From sequence record MZ234033.1: a stretch of 51,299 nucleotides of DNA; one strand, given 5' to 3'. Both the position numbers and the translations under genes were made by a program. Origin of the DNA: Escherichia phage vB_EcoS-G3B1. A model generated the notes under the pieces. It worked only from the letters and a program-made list of their open reading frames with translations, did no database searches and was not told the DNA's origin. Shown here piece after piece: positions 30,357 through 35,541 of this stretch (positions are counted from its first letter, which is position 1; every line of letters begins with the position of its first letter).

Positions 30357-31013
<657 letters not shown>

Positions 31014-31018
31014 TAAAC

Positions 31019-31038
31019 GGGGCGCTTGCGCCCCTTTT
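31019..31038 (+). terminator. Hairpin plus short T-run
   Basis: GGGGCGCTTGCGCCCC then TTTT. Confidence 0.4.
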
Positions 31039-31056
31039 GTCATAGGAGAAAACAAA

Positions 31057-31515
31057 ATGCACGTTATTACAGGTGAGATTCGAAAAGAGCCAAAAGTAAA
31101 GCAAATGCCTAACGGCAGCACGCTATATGTTATTGAGCTTTCCGAACGATACAAAGACCGAGAAGGAAATTGGCAGTATACAAACTATGTGTTTTTCTTT
31201 AACGCGAAAACAGACGGCCTGAATGGTTGGTATGCCGAGGCGTTCCAGGTAGGCAAGGTTGTTTCTGTTTCCTGCGATACCTTGCGAGTTGAAACGCGAG
31301 AATACAACGGAAAGATTTACAGCACCGTGCAGCCTGGCGGATTTGCAAACTTGCTATTTAGCCAGAGAGGTGAAAGCCAGCAACAATATCAGCAGCGAAC
31401 GCAAGGAGGCTGGTGGCAACCACAACAGCAACAGCAACAGCAACAAAATACTCAACAGCAGCCGCAGCAAAGCAATCAGCCTCCGATTGACTTTGACGAC
31501 GATATACCATTCTGA
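31057..31515 (+). CDS. ssb: Single-stranded DNA-binding protein
   Basis: Gln-rich tail and acidic C-terminal tip DFDDDIPF characteristic of SSB; RBS AGGAGAAAACAAA. Confidence 0.8.
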   Translation: MHVITGEIRKEPKVKQMPNGSTLYVIELSERYKDREGNWQYTNYVFFFNAKTDGLNGWYAEAFQVGKVVSVSCDTLRVETREYNGKIYSTVQPGGFANLLFSQRGESQQQYQQRTQGGWWQPQQQQQQQQNTQQQPQQSNQPPIDFDDDIPF

Positions 31516-31524
31516 TAACAAAAA

Positions 31525-31549
31525 GCCCCGCATATGCGGGGCATTTTTT
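31525..31549. terminator. Bidirectional intrinsic terminator
   Basis: A-run, hairpin GCCCCGCATATGCGGGGC, T-run; between convergent ssb and fibre genes. Confidence 0.65.
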
Positions 31550-32222
31550 AGTCTAACGTGGTTGGTTTGTTTACCAGTGCCGCTACAACCGCTTTTAGCT
31601 CGTCAATTTCTTTTCTCATCTCATCGTTTTCCGCTTTCAGTTTCTTAACGTGGTGAATCAGTGGAACAGTGAGGCGGTCATACATAACGCCTTCCGCCAC
31701 CATGCCATTACTTGAAGCAATGGCAGGATCTTCTCCTTCTTGCAGCGGTCGCCAGTGAACGTACTCCGGCGCAATTTCTCCAACCTCTTCCGCGATTAGC
31801 CCGTACCATCCCCAATCTTTACGGTCGCTTTCACAAGTTGACCGATACCAAACAGGACGCATTTCAAGCATCAGATCCGCATATTCATCAATAACCGATT
31901 CTACGCTGCGCTTATAACGAGAAGAGGAAGTGGAGCGTAAAACTTGCGAAACTCCAGCATTTGGATCAAGCCATAAGTTTGCTGATTGAGCGGTTGTGTT
32001 AAGATTAAATAAATAAAATGCATCTTTACCAGTTAGGGGGTAAAAACTCCCACTATACCTTCCGCTACCCAACTCGGATGATAGATCAGTTTGTTTTAGA
32101 TACAACTTCAACTTATTGTCAACATCAGTAGTTGATGCTTTTCCTGCAACATCCTGTTTTAGTGTTGAAACGTCATTTTTCAGCTTCGTTATATCACTAG
32201 GTATAACAGTGACTGTAGCCAT
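31548..32222 (-). CDS. Short tail fibre-like protein with C-terminal S74-type intramolecular chaperone domain
   Basis: C-terminal segment SDRKDWGWYGLIAEEVGEIAPEYV...LKAENDEMRKEIDELK resembles self-cleaving chaperone domains of phage fibres; RBS AAGGAG. Confidence 0.5.
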   Translation of the reverse strand: MATVTVIPSDITKLKNDVSTLKQDVAGKASTTDVDNKLKLYLKQTDLSSELGSGRYSGSFYPLTGKDAFYLFNLNTTAQSANLWLDPNAGVSQVLRSTSSSRYKRSVESVIDEYADLMLEMRPVWYRSTCESDRKDWGWYGLIAEEVGEIAPEYVHWRPLQEGEDPAIASSNGMVAEGVMYDRLTVPLIHHVKKLKAENDEMRKEIDELKAVVAALVNKPTTLD

Positions 32223-32234
32223 TTTCCTAACTCC

Positions 32235-32513
32235 TTAAGCCCATTCTCTAATAGGCTGATCTAACTCAACCACGTATCCATTAAAAATTACGGCATCAAA
32301 CTTATCATCAATGATTCGCACATTAACGAAATAGCCGTCGTTCTTTCGCGCAATCTCCTCGCCATCGTCAGTTCGTGCAATTACTGTATAAGTATTGCCG
32401 ATTACATCGAGCAGGATTGCATCCTGAATGGATTCGTTATCATCCCAATTAATTTTTCCTAAAAAGGCCGAAAACTCGGCCTTGTCTGAAAATTTTAATG
32501 TTAAATCACGCAT
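32235..32513 (-). CDS. Hypothetical protein downstream of tail fibre (92 aa)
   Basis: Start overlaps tail fibre stop. Confidence 0.45.
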   Translation of the reverse strand: MRDLTLKFSDKAEFSAFLGKINWDDNESIQDAILLDVIGNTYTVIARTDDGEEIARKNDGYFVNVRIIDDKFDAVIFNGYVVELDQPIREWA

Positions 32514-34504
32514 TAAACAATTTCCCCCAATTGATGATCTGTTAGTGCCTTGTGCCAGATTCGCAAGTTCTTGACGTGTCCGAACAAGTGCCTGTTACCA
32601 GATGCAGACTGTCCGCCAATATTTATGTTTCCTGCAATGTATCGTTGCTTAGTCCACAATGAAGGAGACTCACTGCCAAGAACGCCATCAACTACAACTT
32701 GTAATTTTTTTTCTTCCGTAAATATGAATCCAGCAACAAACTTATTCTTAACTCTATCCCCATATGCTTTATATTCAGTTTTGCTACCTTTGCCGTTAGT
32801 GATTATCAACCTTCTTCCTCCGCTTGTTAAACCAAAATACATGTAACTCTCGTCTTGTATTTCAGTTGTAGATCCAGTAATTGATACATTTAGAAGTCTT
32901 GCTGATCCTTCTATGTTTGGCATTTTATTTACAGCGCCCCAATTAACATTAACCTCCATCAATGCGCATATAGGCGGAGTCGCCCAGTTCATAGGAATTG
33001 GAATGAGCACAATATCGCTAGCTCTTGTTGTTGGTGATCCTTCTGTTATTATGAATGATGATGCACACGAGCCAACCTCAATCTGAGGGGTTGTAAGATC
33101 CATAAAGCTAGTTTCATCAAGAATACCACCACCTGTTTTGTTGGCAATTGTAATAACACCTCTAACATGAGTTGTTTCATCTGTTATTTTATACACAACC
33201 TCTACAAAAACCCACTCACCAACACGAACAGCATTTTTTGCAACAATATTTTCTATATCGCCACCGGACAAATGAATACCTAGACTATCGCAATCAATGT
33301 ATGCAATTGCTACAGCAGATAGAGGATCGCCCTTATCAAATCTTGCACCAAATCTAACATTATTCCCTTTCGCTCTGAAAGATATAGTTACCATATCATT
33401 TTTTACAACTGGTATTTTATTTGGTGTCAGTCCTGCAATGACAGTATATGCACCAGTACCACCAGAAAATTCTCCTGGCTTGAATGTTGCATATTTAAAG
33501 CCTAATGGATCGGTCTTTGTTTTGCTTATTTCAAGCCCTGGGTTTGGATTCCATAACTCCGGTGAGTTTGAATTTATGAAATAGTTAGTTCTCTGACCTT
33601 CGATCAGTAAACCATCCCTTTCAAATCGAGGTTCATCAACATCTGCAATAGTAAGCACGCCAGCTTTATTTATGTAAGTTGCACCGGATGCGCGCTTAAA
33701 GTTGACAACCTTATCTGATGGCATTGTGATCACATCATCGCCAACAGTTATTTTTTTGTAACCAGGAGCAAAGCCGGTGATCATATCCAGGGAATCATTA
33801 AACGGTATCCACACGTCCGGCAACGGTTGCAATAAATCTTTGTAAGGTTCTGCGGCCTGCTTTGCGTATTCCTCCGCTTGATCTCGCGCGCTTTCAGCGC
33901 CTGCCTTTGCAGTGTTCGCAGCATCACGCGCAGTTTCAGCGCCTTCTCTTGCTGTTTCAGCGCCAGTCTTTGCAGTGTTTGCAGCGTCGCGCGCGGATTC
34001 AGCGGCAGCCTTTGCAGTATCAGCACCTTTCTTGCTATTCGCTGCATTTGTTGCGCTTGTCTTCGCGTTATTCTCGCTGGTTTTAGCTGCCTGCTGGCTT
34101 GCTGCTGCTGCGTCAGCATTTGTCTTTACGTCTTCCTGGATCTTCTGTAGCTTATCCCAATCAAAATCCTTGATGATCTCAATAAATCCAGCAAACTCAG
34201 ATTCCTTCCCCTGGTAATAACGCAGCGTTTCCGCTACGTCTTGCGCAAGACCGTCAACCGTTAACGAGTCATGAAGCAAGATCAGGTAATTTGTCTTCTG
34301 TACTACCGCGCCGCCAGTAGTAATTGCGCGAATGCTTGTATCGCTAATCACTTCAGTAATCACAGCAGCTTGCAAAGGTTGAGAAAGAAAGAAAATAGTT
34401 GCACCTGGGCGAATCAAGGTTAATTGCTCACGCCATTTTGTACCGTAACCAGTTACATAACCTTGCGCGTCCATAGACGCTTGGCCTTGTCTGTAAATCG
34501 CCAT
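32513..34504 (-). CDS. Side tail fibre protein with Ala-rich tandem repeats
   Basis: 663 aa; N-terminal MAIYRQGQA; repeat block AKTSATNAANSKKGADTAKAAAESARDAANTAKTGAETAREGAETARDAANTAKAGAESARD. Confidence 0.7.
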   Translation of the reverse strand: MAIYRQGQASMDAQGYVTGYGTKWREQLTLIRPGATIFFLSQPLQAAVITEVISDTSIRAITTGGAVVQKTNYLILLHDSLTVDGLAQDVAETLRYYQGKESEFAGFIEIIKDFDWDKLQKIQEDVKTNADAAAASQQAAKTSENNAKTSATNAANSKKGADTAKAAAESARDAANTAKTGAETAREGAETARDAANTAKAGAESARDQAEEYAKQAAEPYKDLLQPLPDVWIPFNDSLDMITGFAPGYKKITVGDDVITMPSDKVVNFKRASGATYINKAGVLTIADVDEPRFERDGLLIEGQRTNYFINSNSPELWNPNPGLEISKTKTDPLGFKYATFKPGEFSGGTGAYTVIAGLTPNKIPVVKNDMVTISFRAKGNNVRFGARFDKGDPLSAVAIAYIDCDSLGIHLSGGDIENIVAKNAVRVGEWVFVEVVYKITDETTHVRGVITIANKTGGGILDETSFMDLTTPQIEVGSCASSFIITEGSPTTRASDIVLIPIPMNWATPPICALMEVNVNWGAVNKMPNIEGSARLLNVSITGSTTEIQDESYMYFGLTSGGRRLIITNGKGSKTEYKAYGDRVKNKFVAGFIFTEEKKLQVVVDGVLGSESPSLWTKQRYIAGNINIGGQSASGNRHLFGHVKNLRIWHKALTDHQLGEIV

Positions 34505-34570: not shown

Positions 34571-34596
34571 AAAAAAAAACCCCGCATAAGCGGGGC
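34571..34596 (-). terminator. Rho-independent terminator for minus-strand primase transcript
   Basis: Hairpin CCCCGCATAAGCGGGG with A9 on + strand (T-run on minus). Confidence 0.6.
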
Positions 34597-34611: not shown

Positions 34612-35541
34612 TTATAGCAGTGATTCAGGCTTGTAGAGTTTTCTTTCTACGCCCTGTTTAAAATTATCGTTAACAGGCATCATTATGTCAAGCCCTCTTT
34701 CCTCTGCCGCGATTATCACATCACGATCATCTTTCCGGCAGACTACGCGCATTCTTCTTTCTCCTTTATATCTATGCGCAACCATTTCAAGATTTGAAGG
34801 AGTAAAACAGGCCCACACCTCTTGACCAGTTGATAAATGAACATGCTGAGAATCAATCCAATCAAGGCACAAATAGATCGTCTTATCTGTACTACCTGTT
34901 TTAACAACAGATCCGCGCGTGTAGTCGCGAGCTAAAAACCAATCCTTTCCATCCTCATCAATGAAAAGCACGTTACACATTTCATCATCCAGCCCGTCAT
35001 CATGCACCAGGTGACAAGGTAGCGCGTGAATGTATCGACCATCCTTGACGCCGCAATCATAATGACAATCTTCCGGCGGATATATCCCCTCATAAACGCT
35101 TAAAGGTGTGCGATCGAATTTTAATGTTTTTGCCATCACTTTTTCGCAACATTCATGACTTGCCTGTTTCCCGAACGAGTAACCAGAAGAACGCGAAGCG
35201 CGTTTGTTTGCTCTGATCCTGTAATCTTGTGGCACTTTTCCGAGGAAGCGGCCCAAAATGTTGATGGCCTCGCTGTAAGGTTCGCCAGTTAATTTCATTA
35301 ACCAACCGATCCCCGTGTCGTTGCCGCACACGTTGCAGATCGCGCCGCCGTCGCCCTCTTCATTTAGCTTATCAGTCCATCTAAAACGATCCTTACCGCC
35401 GCAGTGTGGGCAAGGTTGATGCTTTTTGTTGAAAACATCGCTATGCAGTCCGCAAATGCTTTGTAGTGCTTCACGCCATAACCCCTTCATATATGGCAAA
35501 ACATCTTCTTTCTGATAGGTCATAAAGTTTTCAGTATTCAT
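34612..35541 (-). CDS. DNA primase (zinc-finger containing, putative)
   Basis: CPHCGG...CNVCG zinc-binding motif; RBS GAGG before ATG at 35541 (ORF-track start trimmed). Confidence 0.5.
   Translation of the reverse strand: MNTENFMTYQKEDVLPYMKGLWREALQSICGLHSDVFNKKHQPCPHCGGKDRFRWTDKLNEEGDGGAICNVCGNDTGIGWLMKLTGEPYSEAINILGRFLGKVPQDYRIRANKRASRSSGYSFGKQASHECCEKVMAKTLKFDRTPLSVYEGIYPPEDCHYDCGVKDGRYIHALPCHLVHDDGLDDEMCNVLFIDEDGKDWFLARDYTRGSVVKTGSTDKTIYLCLDWIDSQHVHLSTGQEVWACFTPSNLEMVAHRYKGERRMRVVCRKDDRDVIIAAEERGLDIMMPVNDNFKQGVERKLYKPESLL

What the first reader, a model, noticed from the sequence alone, without database searches (positions are those of the whole stretch)
31548..32222. Short fibre-like protein consisting mainly of an S74-type self-cleaving chaperone domain
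The 224-aa protein has a C-terminal half resembling the intramolecular chaperone/autoprotease domain normally found at the end of long tail fibres or tailspikes (motif around SDRKDW ... LKAENDEMRKEIDELK), attached to only about 110 residues of N-terminal sequence. After self-cleavage the mature product would be very small, suggesting a minimal fibre tip or a chaperone acting in trans.
Basis: partly seen in the sequence, partly recalled or inferred. Interest (0 to 1): 0.45.

Follow-up and report, generated by a model that had tools for sequence, protein, structure and literature searches.

The report
Minimal second tail-fibre with S74 chaperone
This is a real, conserved gene of a T1-like coliphage for a very short tail-fibre protein, more than half of which is a self-cleaving folding (S74) domain; it is most likely a stripped-down second subunit that plugs onto the phage's lateral tail fibre, which makes it an unusual variant of a known design and not a new kind of system.

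Summary
The ORF is real: 31548-32222, minus strand, 224 aa. The window is a Warwickvirus (Drexlerviridae) genome. Residues 99-224 are a genuine peptidase S74 / intramolecular chaperone domain by three measures: Pfam (borderline), a profile search against solved S74 domains (E 5e-15), and the predicted fold (MyRF ICA, endoNF, GA-1).

The catalytic pair is S99/K104 (LRST|SSSRYK), the same pattern as T5 pb1. Cleavage would leave a 98-aa mature chain.

The gene is under purifying selection (dN/dS 0.14). It is the third gene of a widespread cassette: a lateral fibre with a lectin-like, hypervariable end, then a 92-aa protein, then an S74 fibre.

All third-gene products (224, about 234, 346-351 and 579 aa) start with the same motif, M-x-T-x-T-x-IP-x-DI(T/K)-x-LK. 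In 80 of 80 metagenomic loci this motif begins an ORF right after a 92-aa homologue.

My best reading is a minimal LtfB-like second fibre subunit that docks on the lateral fibre. A trans-chaperone role is disfavoured: 44 of 76 related loci lack the gene, and it does not co-vary with the variable fibre end. No experiment supports any of these roles. Interest is modest.

The parts
31548..32222 (-). Whole gene for the 224-aa S74 mini-fibre. It is the third gene of the lateral-tail-fibre unit.
   Evidence: ORF. It is 99.6% identical to tunzivis gp74 and 93% to PeterMerian bas05_0029. dN/dS against PeterMerian is 0.14.
32178..32222 (-). N-terminal motif MATVTVIPSDITKLK (residues 1-15). This is the proposed docking module, shared by all fibres encoded after the 92-aa gene.
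   Evidence: Translation. M1, T3, T5, I7, P8, D10, I11, T12, L14 and K15 are invariant in the six third-gene products aligned, which range from 215 to 579 aa; variants with K at position 12 (DIK) appear in IMG/VR loci. In 80 of 80 IMG/VR loci the motif starts an ORF directly after a 92-aa homologue. Differences from PeterMerian in residues 1-33 are 5 synonymous and 0 non-synonymous.
32067..32177 (-). Residues 16-52: a heptad coiled-coil segment. The DVSTLKQ unit lies at 32154-32174 and its copy number varies between phages. A short KASTTDVDNKL stretch follows.
   Evidence: Indels between homologues are in frame and nearly all multiples of 7 aa (7, 14 or 21). There is a weak match to a GCN4-fused fibre segment, 7o9v, at E 0.25. 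AlphaFold predicts helices 12-26, 31-41 and 44-52, but at low confidence because the model is a monomer.
31929..32066 (-). Residues 53-98: the distal tip that precedes the cleavage site (SGRYSGSFYPLTG...TTAQSANLWLDPNAGVSQVLRST). It is inferred to form the last intertwined beta turns of the trimer.
   Evidence: Translation. T76, T77 and R96 are invariant, and N82, S97 and T98 are at least 90% conserved, in 86 homologues. The segment is homologous to the last residues before the S74 domain of long fibres of 958 to 1435 aa.
31911..31931 (-). Predicted autocleavage site T98|S99 and catalytic dyad S99...K104 (TSSSRYK).
   Evidence: Translation. K104 is invariant and S99 at least 90% conserved in 86 sequences. 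These residues align with the S-x4-K of solved S74 proteins. The pattern matches T5 pb1: Thr1263|Ser1264...Lys1269 (PMC4690869).
31665..31928 (-). S74 / intramolecular-chaperone core, residues 99-186.
   Evidence: Pfam PF13884 covers residues 99-155. Block-mean pLDDT is 85-97. Fold matches are. dN/dS is 0.03.
31551..31664 (-). C-terminal long helix, residues 187-224 (LKAENDEMRKEIDELKAVVAAL). This is the trimerising coiled coil of the chaperone domain.
   Evidence: AlphaFold predicts a helix at 181-217. Leucine-zipper-type Pfam matches fall at 189-216. It aligns with the C-terminal helices of 8hqz, 6f45 and 7dc3.
32231..32236 (-). Shine-Dalgarno sequence AAGGAG, 8 nt upstream of the ATG. It overlaps the TAA stop of the 92-aa gene.
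   Evidence: Read directly from the sequence.
32036..32046 (-). Homopolymer tract TTTTTACCCCC inside codons 59-62. This is where the copy in phage orkinos is frameshifted.
   Evidence: The alignment shows C5 changed to C6 in orkinos. Truncated gene calls that begin around residues 51-58 occur in other genomes (P0015-P0017).
32235..32513 (-). Gene for a conserved 92-aa protein of unknown role. It always lies between the lateral fibre gene and the third gene.
32513..34504 (-). Lateral tail fibre, 663 aa. It has a conserved N-terminal anchor and an Ala-rich coil (residues 1-232), followed by a hypervariable distal part that ends in a ConA/laminin-G-like domain.
   Evidence: Pfam Laminin_G_3 at residues 551-658 and PHROG 1419. 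NCBIfam GTA_spike_fiber at 300-495. Residues 401-663 are only 51-61% identical to tunzivis, while the two downstream genes are 99% or more identical.
31525..31542 (.). Bidirectional intrinsic terminator shared with the convergent SSB gene. It ends the fibre unit.
   Evidence: a stem of 7 G-C pairs with T-runs on both strands.
34579..34596 (-). Terminator between the primase gene and the fibre gene. It marks the upstream limit of the three-gene unit.

Best explanation
The 224-aa protein is a minimal second subunit of the phage's lateral tail fibre, comparable to LtfB of T5-like phages.

Proposed mechanism:
1. Three chains are brought together by the C-terminal S74 intramolecular-chaperone domain (residues 99-224: an alpha/beta core plus a C-terminal coiled-coil helix).
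2. This domain templates folding of the short intertwined tip (about residues 53-98) and the heptad coiled coil (about 16-52).
3. Once the trimer is correct, Ser99, activated by Lys104, cuts the T98|S99 bond and the chaperone leaves.
4. The remaining 98-residue trimer has no separate receptor-binding domain between coil and tip. It attaches through its conserved N-terminal motif (M-x-T-x-T-x-IP-x-DIT-x-LK) to the distal part of the 663-aa lateral fibre, possibly with the 92-aa protein.

Shown here: the ORF, the S74 fold, the conserved dyad, purifying selection, the cassette architecture, and the shared N-terminal motif. Inferred: trimerisation, cleavage, docking on the lateral fibre, and what the stub does on the virion (stabilising or capping the branch point, or binding a conserved surface structure).
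For: S74 identity:
- Pfam match.
- Profile hits to solved S74 domains, with S99/K104 aligned to their S-x4-K.
- The 11 best Foldseek matches in the PDB are all S74/ICA domains.
- K104 is invariant, and S99 and T98 are at least 90% conserved, in 86 homologues.
- The T|S...K pattern is that of T5 pb1 (PMC4690869).

A functional gene:
- Strong Shine-Dalgarno sequence.
- dN/dS 0.14 overall, and 0 non-synonymous against 5 synonymous changes in residues 1-33.
- Indels are in frame and nearly all multiples of 7 aa.
- The same short form is kept at about 56% identity in lambdoid prophages. The prophage type is present in 740 of 5426 complete E. coli genomes.

A second fibre subunit:
- The gene after the 92-aa gene is 224 aa here, 351 aa in JenP1 and 579 aa in T5-like BUCT632. 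All begin with the same motif and end in S74.
- In 80 of 80 IMG/VR loci the motif starts an ORF 16 nt after the last aligned codon of a 92-aa homologue, which itself follows a homologous fibre end.
- Homologues of the 579-aa fibre in phages with other attachment systems match only from residue 29 or 49 onward. The first ~28 residues are therefore specific to this context.

Published precedents:
- DT57C LtfB docks on LtfA through its N-terminal ~45 residues (PMC4728585).
- The BASEL phage IrisVonRoten is modelled with a distal IMC-bearing fibre attached to a proximal fibre that has a C-terminal galectin-like domain (PMC11990801).
Against: - There are no proteomic, microscopy or genetic data for this protein or any close homologue.
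- Complexes could not be modelled here. The N-terminal 70 residues have pLDDT below 50 in the monomer model.
- A 98-aa mature chain with no recognisable binding domain is an odd thing for a phage to keep.
- The gene is frameshifted in at least one sequenced relative, orkinos. Split matches or truncated gene calls in others suggest the same, so it may be dispensable, at least on laboratory K-12.
- A related phage carries the same S74 end fused to a single 1195-aa fibre. The short gene could therefore have begun as a leftover 3' end.
- The Pfam score is only just at threshold.
Confidence: 0.6

Rival explanations
1. It is a trans-acting assembly chaperone. The S74 protein would help the 663-aa lateral fibre to trimerise and would not itself be a virion component. 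This is how PeterMerian's annotation reads ('putative lateral tail fiber chaperone').
For: - GenBank annotations of orthologues use this name.
- It is encoded directly downstream of the fibre gene, like lambda tfa.
- The chaperone domain makes up more than half of the protein.
Against: - Homologous fibre plus 92-aa gene pairs exist without any S74 gene in phage 21 and in 44 of 76 IMG/VR loci.
- The S74 protein does not co-vary with the part of the fibre that would need folding. In tunzivis the S74 protein is 99.6% identical while fibre residues 401-663 are 51-61% identical. In L007 the figures are 94-99% and 32-34%.
- The cleavage site and the preceding tip are strongly conserved. That is expected for cis action.
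- The N-terminal motif is shared with fibres that clearly carry receptor-binding domains.
- All solved S74 domains I know of act in cis (background knowledge; PMC4690869).
Confidence: 0.12
2. It is an evolutionary leftover. A cassette (variable fibre end plus the 92-aa gene) was recombined into an ancestral long fibre gene. The old 3' end, with its S74 module, was stranded as an ORF with little or no present function, perhaps serving only as a homology arm for further cassette exchange.
For: - IMG/VR loci L008 and L009, in the same genomic context, have one 1195-aa fibre. Its first ~500 nt region is 88.8% identical and its last 198 aa are 76% identical to residues 34-224 here.
- Long prophage fibres end in the same module.
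- Frameshifted or truncated copies occur in several sequenced relatives.
Against: - There is clear purifying selection, including in the N-terminal 33 residues that the long fibres lack.
- It has its own strong ribosome-binding site.
- The N-terminal motif is shared with 346-aa and 579-aa third-gene fibres in other phage families, which argues against a chance start codon.
- The short form persists at about 56% identity across phage families and in 740 E. coli genomes.
Confidence: 0.15
3. It is an independent short fibre that binds directly to the tail tip, or elsewhere on the virion, and not to the lateral fibre. It would recognise a conserved receptor such as the LPS core through its exposed tip.
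For: - The tip segment (residues 34-98) has the highest dN/dS at short distances, 0.31 and 0.52. It is rich in aromatic residues.
- The protein is conserved while the lateral fibre end varies.
Against: - The N-terminal motif occurs with the same fibre-end and 92-aa pair in phages whose tail tips are unrelated: T5-like, lambdoid, Nonagvirus and Drexlerviridae. The common partner is therefore that pair and not the tail tip.
- The dN/dS counts are tiny.
Confidence: 0.1

Closest known systems
C-terminal intramolecular chaperone domains (peptidase S74) of phage K1F endosialidase, T5 L-shaped fibre pb1 and GA-1 neck appendage (PDB 3GW6, 4UW8, 3GUD)
   Same: Same fold. Same Ser-x4-Lys dyad at the domain boundary, with Thr before the Ser as in T5. 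Same C-terminal trimerising helix. Same position at the very end of a fibre protein.
   Different: In those proteins the chaperone folds a large enzymatic or receptor-binding body of hundreds of residues. Here it makes up 56% of the protein, and the mature part is a 98-aa coil plus tip. Sequence identity is low (Foldseek: 14-18% to 3gw6 and 3gud, 26% to MyRF 7dc3). Cleavage has not been shown.
LtfB of T5-like phages DT57C and DT571/2 (branched lateral tail fibres; PMC4728585, PMC10713586)
   Same: A second fibre protein encoded downstream of the anchoring fibre. It is proposed to dock through a short conserved N-terminal segment and it ends in an S74 domain.
   Different: DT57C LtfA itself ends in S74, and there is no mention of a 92-aa gene in the passages read. 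LtfB carries a real receptor-binding region and determines host range (O81). The N-terminal docking sequences were not compared here, so no homology to DT57C LtfB is claimed.
T-shaped distal fibre of Tequintavirus phages (IrisVonRoten Gp24 in PMC11990801; BUCT632 579-aa protein here)
   Same: Same gene position after a proximal fibre with a lectin-like end and a 92-aa gene. Same N-terminal motif, with 76% identity over 17 residues. Ends in S74.
   Different: That protein has about 470 mature residues with two receptor-binding domains, whereas this one has 98 and none recognisable. I did not check directly that IrisVonRoten carries the 92-aa gene.
346-351-aa third-gene fibre of Nonagvirus JenP1 and many E. 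coli prophages
   Same: Same cassette, same N-terminal motif, and S74 at the end.
   Different: Its mature part is about 226 residues, and its S74 domain is only 25% identical to this one.
MyRF ICA domain (eukaryotic S74 homologue, PDB 7DC3)
   Same: It is the best structural match (E 5e-5, 26% identity) and a profile match (E 4e-8).
   Different: It is part of a membrane-bound eukaryotic transcription factor and has no fibre context.
Separately encoded tail-fibre assembly chaperones (lambda Tfa, Mu gpU, T4 gp38/gp57A)
   Same: A small gene downstream of a fibre gene.
   Different: Unrelated folds that act in trans. No similarity was found.

Membership tests
Peptidase S74 / C-terminal intramolecular chaperone domain (Pfam PF13884) | Sequence match to the family model at or above the curated threshold | tested here: met
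   PF13884 gives 22.1 bits against a cut-off of 22, E 1.9e-4, residues 99-155. This is marginal. It is reinforced by a family profile that hits solved S74 proteins: 8hqz_d at 5e-15, 6f45 at 3e-8, 7dc3 at 4e-8, and 3gud. Many homologues also carry PF13884 in precomputed annotation.
Peptidase S74 / C-terminal intramolecular chaperone domain (Pfam PF13884) | Fold of the solved domains: a mixed alpha/beta core followed by a long C-terminal helix | tested here: met
   In the AlphaFold model, block-mean pLDDT is 85-97 across roughly residues 101-220. The 11 best Foldseek matches in the PDB are all S74/ICA domains (7dc3, 3gw6, 3gud). TM-scores are modest because these domains are intertwined trimers and the model is a monomer.
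Peptidase S74 / C-terminal intramolecular chaperone domain (Pfam PF13884) | Catalytic Ser and Lys five residues apart at the N-terminal boundary of the domain | tested here: met
   S99 and K104 (SSSRYK). K104 is invariant and S99 at least 90% conserved in 86 homologues. They align with the S-x4-K of solved members. T98 precedes the Ser, as Thr1263 does in T5 pb1.
Peptidase S74 / C-terminal intramolecular chaperone domain (Pfam PF13884) | Preceded by an intertwined trimeric beta structure whose correct folding licenses cleavage (Arg sensor from a neighbouring chain in T5 and K1F) | tested here: inconclusive
   A conserved block T76, T77, N82, R96, S97, T98 precedes the site. The monomer model is unreliable there (block-mean pLDDT about 50-72) and no trimer could be modelled.
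Peptidase S74 / C-terminal intramolecular chaperone domain (Pfam PF13884) | Autoproteolytic release of the domain after trimerisation | not testable with these tools
   This needs expression and SDS-PAGE or mass spectrometry of the wild type against S99A and K104A mutants.
Second (distal or branch) subunit of a multi-protein lateral tail fibre (LtfB-like) | Encoded downstream of, and in one unit with, the virion-anchored fibre gene | tested here: met
   The gene order is fibre, 92-aa gene, S74 gene, with a 1-nt overlap and then a 12-nt spacer. Terminators bracket the unit. The same order is seen in Drexlerviridae, lambdoid, Nonagvirus and T5-like phages.
Second (distal or branch) subunit of a multi-protein lateral tail fibre (LtfB-like) | A short conserved N-terminal docking segment that is independent of the rest of the protein | tested here: met
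   The motif M-x-T-x-T-x-IP-x-DI(T/K)-x-LK is shared by products of 215 to 579 aa with unrelated bodies. It is always found in the same context, 80 of 80 loci. It is absent from homologous fibres that use other attachment systems. That it actually docks is an inference.
Second (distal or branch) subunit of a multi-protein lateral tail fibre (LtfB-like) | Physical attachment to the first fibre protein and presence in the virion | not testable with these tools
Second (distal or branch) subunit of a multi-protein lateral tail fibre (LtfB-like) | Carries a receptor-binding domain that contributes to host range | tested here: not met
   Only 98 mature residues, with no domain hit outside S74 and coiled-coil-type matches. 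The protein is conserved where the lateral fibre end is hypervariable. I therefore call it a minimal variant that works like an LtfB in assembly, not a standard member.
Trans-acting tail-fibre assembly chaperones (Tfa/gpU type) | Homology to known Tfa families, or obligatory co-occurrence with the fibre it folds | tested here: not met
   No Tfa-type hits. The fibre plus 92-aa pair occurs without it in 44 of 76 loci and in phage 21.

The most novel reading that the evidence does not exclude
The mature product is a fibre with no receptor-binding domain: a 98-residue trimeric stub. Its only job would be to occupy and stabilise the branch socket of the lateral fibre, as LtfA of DT57C appears unstable without LtfB. 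It would be kept as a 'blank' second arm, and its conserved S74 end would double as the homology arm through which new binding modules are swapped in and out. Evidence that both states exist at one locus comes from the 1195-aa fused allele and from the 346-aa and 579-aa third-gene variants. The T5AC5 tract, where at least one relative (orkinos) is frameshifted, could even switch this arm on and off.
Probability: 0.25. Interest if true: 0.5.

Novelty: new variant of a known kind. Interest (0 to 1): 0.3.

Why it matters
Lateral fibres decide which O-antigen types a coliphage can reach, and they are the parts people re-engineer for phage therapy. This work defines a portable three-gene fibre cassette found in T1-like, T5-like, 9g-like and lambdoid phages. 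Its variable element is the lectin-like end of the first fibre. The third gene is an optional plug-in fibre recognised by a 15-residue N-terminal tag.

The window's protein is the smallest such plug-in. If the tag-and-socket idea is right, it gives a natural minimal scaffold (tag, coil, tip, self-removing chaperone) for grafting binding domains onto these fibres.

It would also correct the 'chaperone' labels in several GenBank records. The prophage form is present in about 14% of complete E. coli genomes, and as far as I could find it has never been studied.

Tried and rejected
- Single-sequence search of the PDB found only coiled-coil noise. A profile of the full-length alignment was dominated by the N-terminal fibre repeats of longer homologues and hit Bdellovibrio fibre proteins, not S74 domains. 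Only a profile cut to the S74 region worked.
- NCBIfam has no model for the S74 protein.
- Literature searches for Ser911/Lys916, for T1 fibres and for Peptidase_S74 in prophages gave nothing on this short protein. The T1 cryo-EM paper saw no lateral fibres at all.
- The promoter scan is at background level (10 found against 9.3 expected), so I name no promoter.
- I considered SDRKDW as the catalytic motif and rejected it. It lies 32 residues inside the domain and does not align with the S-x4-K of solved members.
- I did not verify that IrisVonRoten carries the 92-aa gene. The link to the published multimer model rests on BUCT632 and other Tequintavirus homologues.
Full report
**What is in the sequence**

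The window is essentially a complete genome of a T1-like siphophage of the genus Warwickvirus (Drexlerviridae, Tempevirinae). The region around the finding is 88-96% identical at the DNA level to phages such as tunzivis, orkinos and Tuinin. The protein is 99.6% identical to tunzivis gp74 and 93% identical to PeterMerian (Bas05) bas05_0029.

The finding's coordinates are exact. An ATG-to-stop ORF of 224 aa lies at 31548-32222 on the minus strand. It is the last of three tightly packed minus-strand genes:
- a 663-aa lateral tail fibre (32513-34504);
- a 92-aa protein (32235-32513, overlapping the fibre's stop by 1 nt);
- the 224-aa protein, 12 nt further on, with AAGGAG 8 nt before its ATG.

Two strong intrinsic terminators bracket the unit. 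One lies after the primase gene (34596-34579). The other is a bidirectional terminator shared with the convergent SSB gene (31525-31542).

**Is the S74 resemblance real?**

Yes. Pfam PF13884 matches residues 99-155 but only just reaches threshold: 22.1 bits against 22, E 1.9e-4. Three further lines settle the question.
- A profile built from the C-terminal 137 residues of 16 family members finds solved S74 domains. These are a T5-like L-shaped fibre (8hqz_d, E 5e-15), the phage S16 long fibre (6f45, 3e-8), the MyRF ICA domain (7dc3, 4e-8), plus 8jov and GA-1 3gud.
- An AlphaFold model built on 86 homologues is confident from about residue 101 to 220, with block-mean pLDDT of 85-97. Its 11 best Foldseek matches in the PDB are all S74/ICA domains: MyRF 7dc3 (E 5e-5, probability 1.0, 26% identity), endoNF 3gw6 and GA-1 3gud.
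- The catalytic pair is present and conserved. In 86 homologues K104 is invariant, and S99, S100, T98 and S97 are at least 90% conserved. S99 and K104 align with the S-x4-K of the solved proteins.

The local sequence LRST|SSSRYK reproduces the Thr1263|Ser1264...Lys1269 arrangement described for T5 pb1 (PMC4690869). Predicted cleavage at T98|S99 would leave a 98-residue mature chain, not about 110.

**Is it a working gene or a stranded gene end?**

This question arises because the same module ends long fibres elsewhere. Two IMG/VR contigs in the same genomic context (regulator, primase, fibre) carry one 1195-aa fibre. Its 5' region is 88.8% identical to the window's fibre gene. Its last 198 residues are 76% identical to residues 34-224 of the short protein. 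Lambdoid prophage side fibres of 958 to 1435 aa also end in this module, at 48-59% identity.

Several results argue that the short form is nonetheless maintained by selection.
- Against PeterMerian there are 22 synonymous and 11 non-synonymous differences (dN/dS 0.14). In the S74 core the ratio is 0.03. In residues 1-33, which the long fibres lack, there are 5 synonymous and 0 non-synonymous changes.
- Against distant homologues the synonymous sites are saturated, while dN is only 0.23-0.39.
- Length differences between homologues are in frame, and nearly all are multiples of seven residues. They reflect copy-number changes of a DVSTLKQ-type heptad.
- The short form persists at about 56% identity in lambdoid prophages and phages.
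- The prophage type is present at full length in 740 of 5426 complete E. coli genomes, where PGAP calls it 'tail fiber domain-containing protein'.

On the other side, at least one sequenced relative, orkinos, carries a frameshifted copy, caused by C5 becoming C6 in a TTTTTACCCCC tract. Matches split into two pieces in ityhuna, AV105, JLBYU10 and JLBYU19, and truncated gene calls elsewhere, suggest more such copies. The gene may therefore be dispensable, at least on laboratory K-12.

**The cassette and the N-terminal tag**

Homologues of the 92-aa protein occur in 179 phage records. These span Drexlerviridae, lambdoids, Dhillonvirus, Nonagvirus, T5-like and rV5-like phages, and the gene always lies directly after a tail-fibre gene. 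What follows it varies:
- 224 aa in this window;
- 215-234 aa in Hanrivervirus and lambdoid prophages;
- 351 aa in JenP1 ('endosialidase-like');
- 579 aa in the Tequintavirus BUCT632;
- nothing fibre-like in phage 21, where a 97-aa membrane protein comes next.

All the third-gene products end in S74, and all begin with the same motif, M-x-T-x-T-x-I-P-x-D-I-(T/K)-x-L-K. A scan of IMG/VR with that motif gave 189 confirmed loci. In all 80 that were kept, the motif starts an ORF 16 nt after the last aligned codon of a 92-aa homologue, and that homologue follows a homologue of the fibre's distal part. The ORF is 229-234 aa (this type) or 346 aa (JenP1 type).

The 579-aa protein is a homologue of the T-shaped fibres described for BASEL phages. 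In T5-like phages those homologues match it from residue 1. In Wifcevirus and Gordonclarkvirinae, which attach their fibres differently, they match only from residue 29 or 49. The first ~28 residues therefore behave as a context-specific attachment tag.

This fits two published cases. LtfB of DT57C is proposed to dock on LtfA through its N-terminal ~45 residues (PMC4728585; PMC10713586). In IrisVonRoten a distal IMC-bearing fibre is modelled on a proximal fibre that has a galectin-like C-terminal domain (PMC11990801). The window's 663-aa fibre has such a lectin-like end: Laminin_G_3 at residues 551-658.

**Which part varies?**

Within the genus, the distal two-thirds of the lateral fibre is the hypervariable element. 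Compared with tunzivis, fibre residues 401-663 are 51-61% identical, while the 92-aa protein is 99% and the S74 protein 99.6% identical. Compared with IMG/VR locus L007, the figures are 32-34% against 97% and 94-99%. The short S74 protein is therefore not the host-range-variable element. It belongs to the conserved scaffold.

**Mechanism proposed, and what is inferred**

What is shown:
- the gene and its ribosome-binding site;
- the S74 fold and the conserved dyad;
- purifying selection;
- the cassette architecture and the shared N-terminal tag.

What is inferred by analogy with K1F, T5 and DT57C:
- The C-terminal domain trimerises and templates the short tip (residues 53-98) and the heptad coil.
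- S99/K104 then cut at T98|S99 and the domain leaves.
- The 98-residue trimer docks by its N-terminal tag on the distal part of the lateral fibre, possibly involving the 92-aa protein.

What the stub does there is open. It may stabilise or cap the branch point, or it may bind a conserved surface structure through the tip. The tip shows the highest dN/dS at short distance (0.31 and 0.52), but on very small counts.

**Rivals**

*Trans chaperone for the lateral fibre*, as the PeterMerian annotation suggests. This is disfavoured for three reasons.
- The fibre plus 92-aa pair exists without the S74 gene in phage 21 and in 44 of 76 IMG/VR loci.
- There is no co-variation with the variable fibre end.
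- The cleavage site, the tip and the N-terminal tag are conserved, as expected for a cis-acting domain on a structural protein.

*Pure leftover.* The fused allele and the frameshifted copy support this reading. The selection signature, the shared tag and the persistence across phage families argue against it.

*Independent fibre on the tail tip.* This is unlikely, because the tag travels with the fibre-end and 92-aa pair across phages whose tail tips are unrelated.

**Novelty and verdict**

The S74 domain in this gene is already recognised in some GenBank records: 'chaperone of endosialidase' and 'peptidase S74 domain-containing protein'. S74-terminated fibres and branched fibres are established concepts.

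What is unusual is the extreme reduction. The chaperone domain is 56% of the protein, and the mature part has no recognisable binding domain. The other useful result is the definition of the three-gene cassette and its N-terminal tag. I found no publication on this short form.

I rate it a new variant of a known kind, of modest interest (0.3). Confidence that it is an S74 protein is about 0.95. Confidence in the minimal-second-fibre mechanism is about 0.6.

Noticed in passing
window 32036-32046 (minus strand TTTTTACCCCC, codons 59-62 of the S74 gene); L118 (orkinos): Phage orkinos has C6 instead of C5 in this tract, which splits the gene into two annotated ORFs. Clusters of truncated gene calls that begin around residues 51-58 (P0015-P0017; 10, 4 and 3 member sequences) suggest breaks nearby in other genomes. 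These could be sequencing artefacts, loss on laboratory hosts, or a contingency-type switch.
   Followed up: partly
window 32154-32174 (DVSTLKQ heptad) and homologues P0001, P0019, P0021: The N-terminal coil changes length between phages by whole heptads (7, 14 or 21 aa). In some phages the IPxDITxLK motif itself is duplicated, for example the 245-aa form that represents 73 sequences. The stub's length is therefore tunable.
   Followed up: partly
window 32235-32513 (minus strand): The 92-aa protein is conserved from T1-like to T5-like, lambdoid, 9g-like and rV5-like phages (179 phage records) and always follows a fibre gene. Its predicted alpha/beta fold is confident (pLDDT 91.6), but it has no informative structural or family match. 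It stays 97-99% identical while the adjacent fibre end drops to 32-61%, so it is probably not a chaperone specific to the variable domain.
   Followed up: partly
window 32513-34504 (minus strand), residues 300-495 and 551-658: The lateral fibre combines a 'GTA_spike_fiber' (head spike fibre) domain hit (NCBIfam NF048003, E 8e-15) with a C-terminal ConA/laminin-G-like domain. Its distal ~430 residues are swapped between otherwise near-identical Warwickvirus genomes.
   Followed up: partly
L003 2957-3244, L006 5716-6003, L034 4292-4585 (lambdoid prophages and phage 21): In lambdoid phages the fibre cassette is followed by a conserved 95-97-aa protein (MDI(S/T)P(L/F)LHALCAVAAQ...), which the phage 21 record annotates as a membrane protein with two transmembrane segments. 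It follows directly whether or not the S74 gene is present. It could be a moron or an exclusion function. It is absent from the window.
   Followed up: no
window 31006-31515 (plus strand): The SSB-like protein encoded convergently has a long glutamine-rich C-terminal tract (QQYQQRTQGGWWQPQQQQQQQQNTQQQPQQSNQPP) before the acidic tip DFDDDIPF.
   Followed up: no
window 34663-34691 (minus strand): The best sigma-70-like match in the region (TTGACA-17-GATAAT, 11 of 12) lies inside the 3' end of the primase gene, upstream of the terminator at 34596-34579. It cannot simply be the fibre-unit promoter. The overall number of promoter-like sites is at chance level.
   Followed up: no
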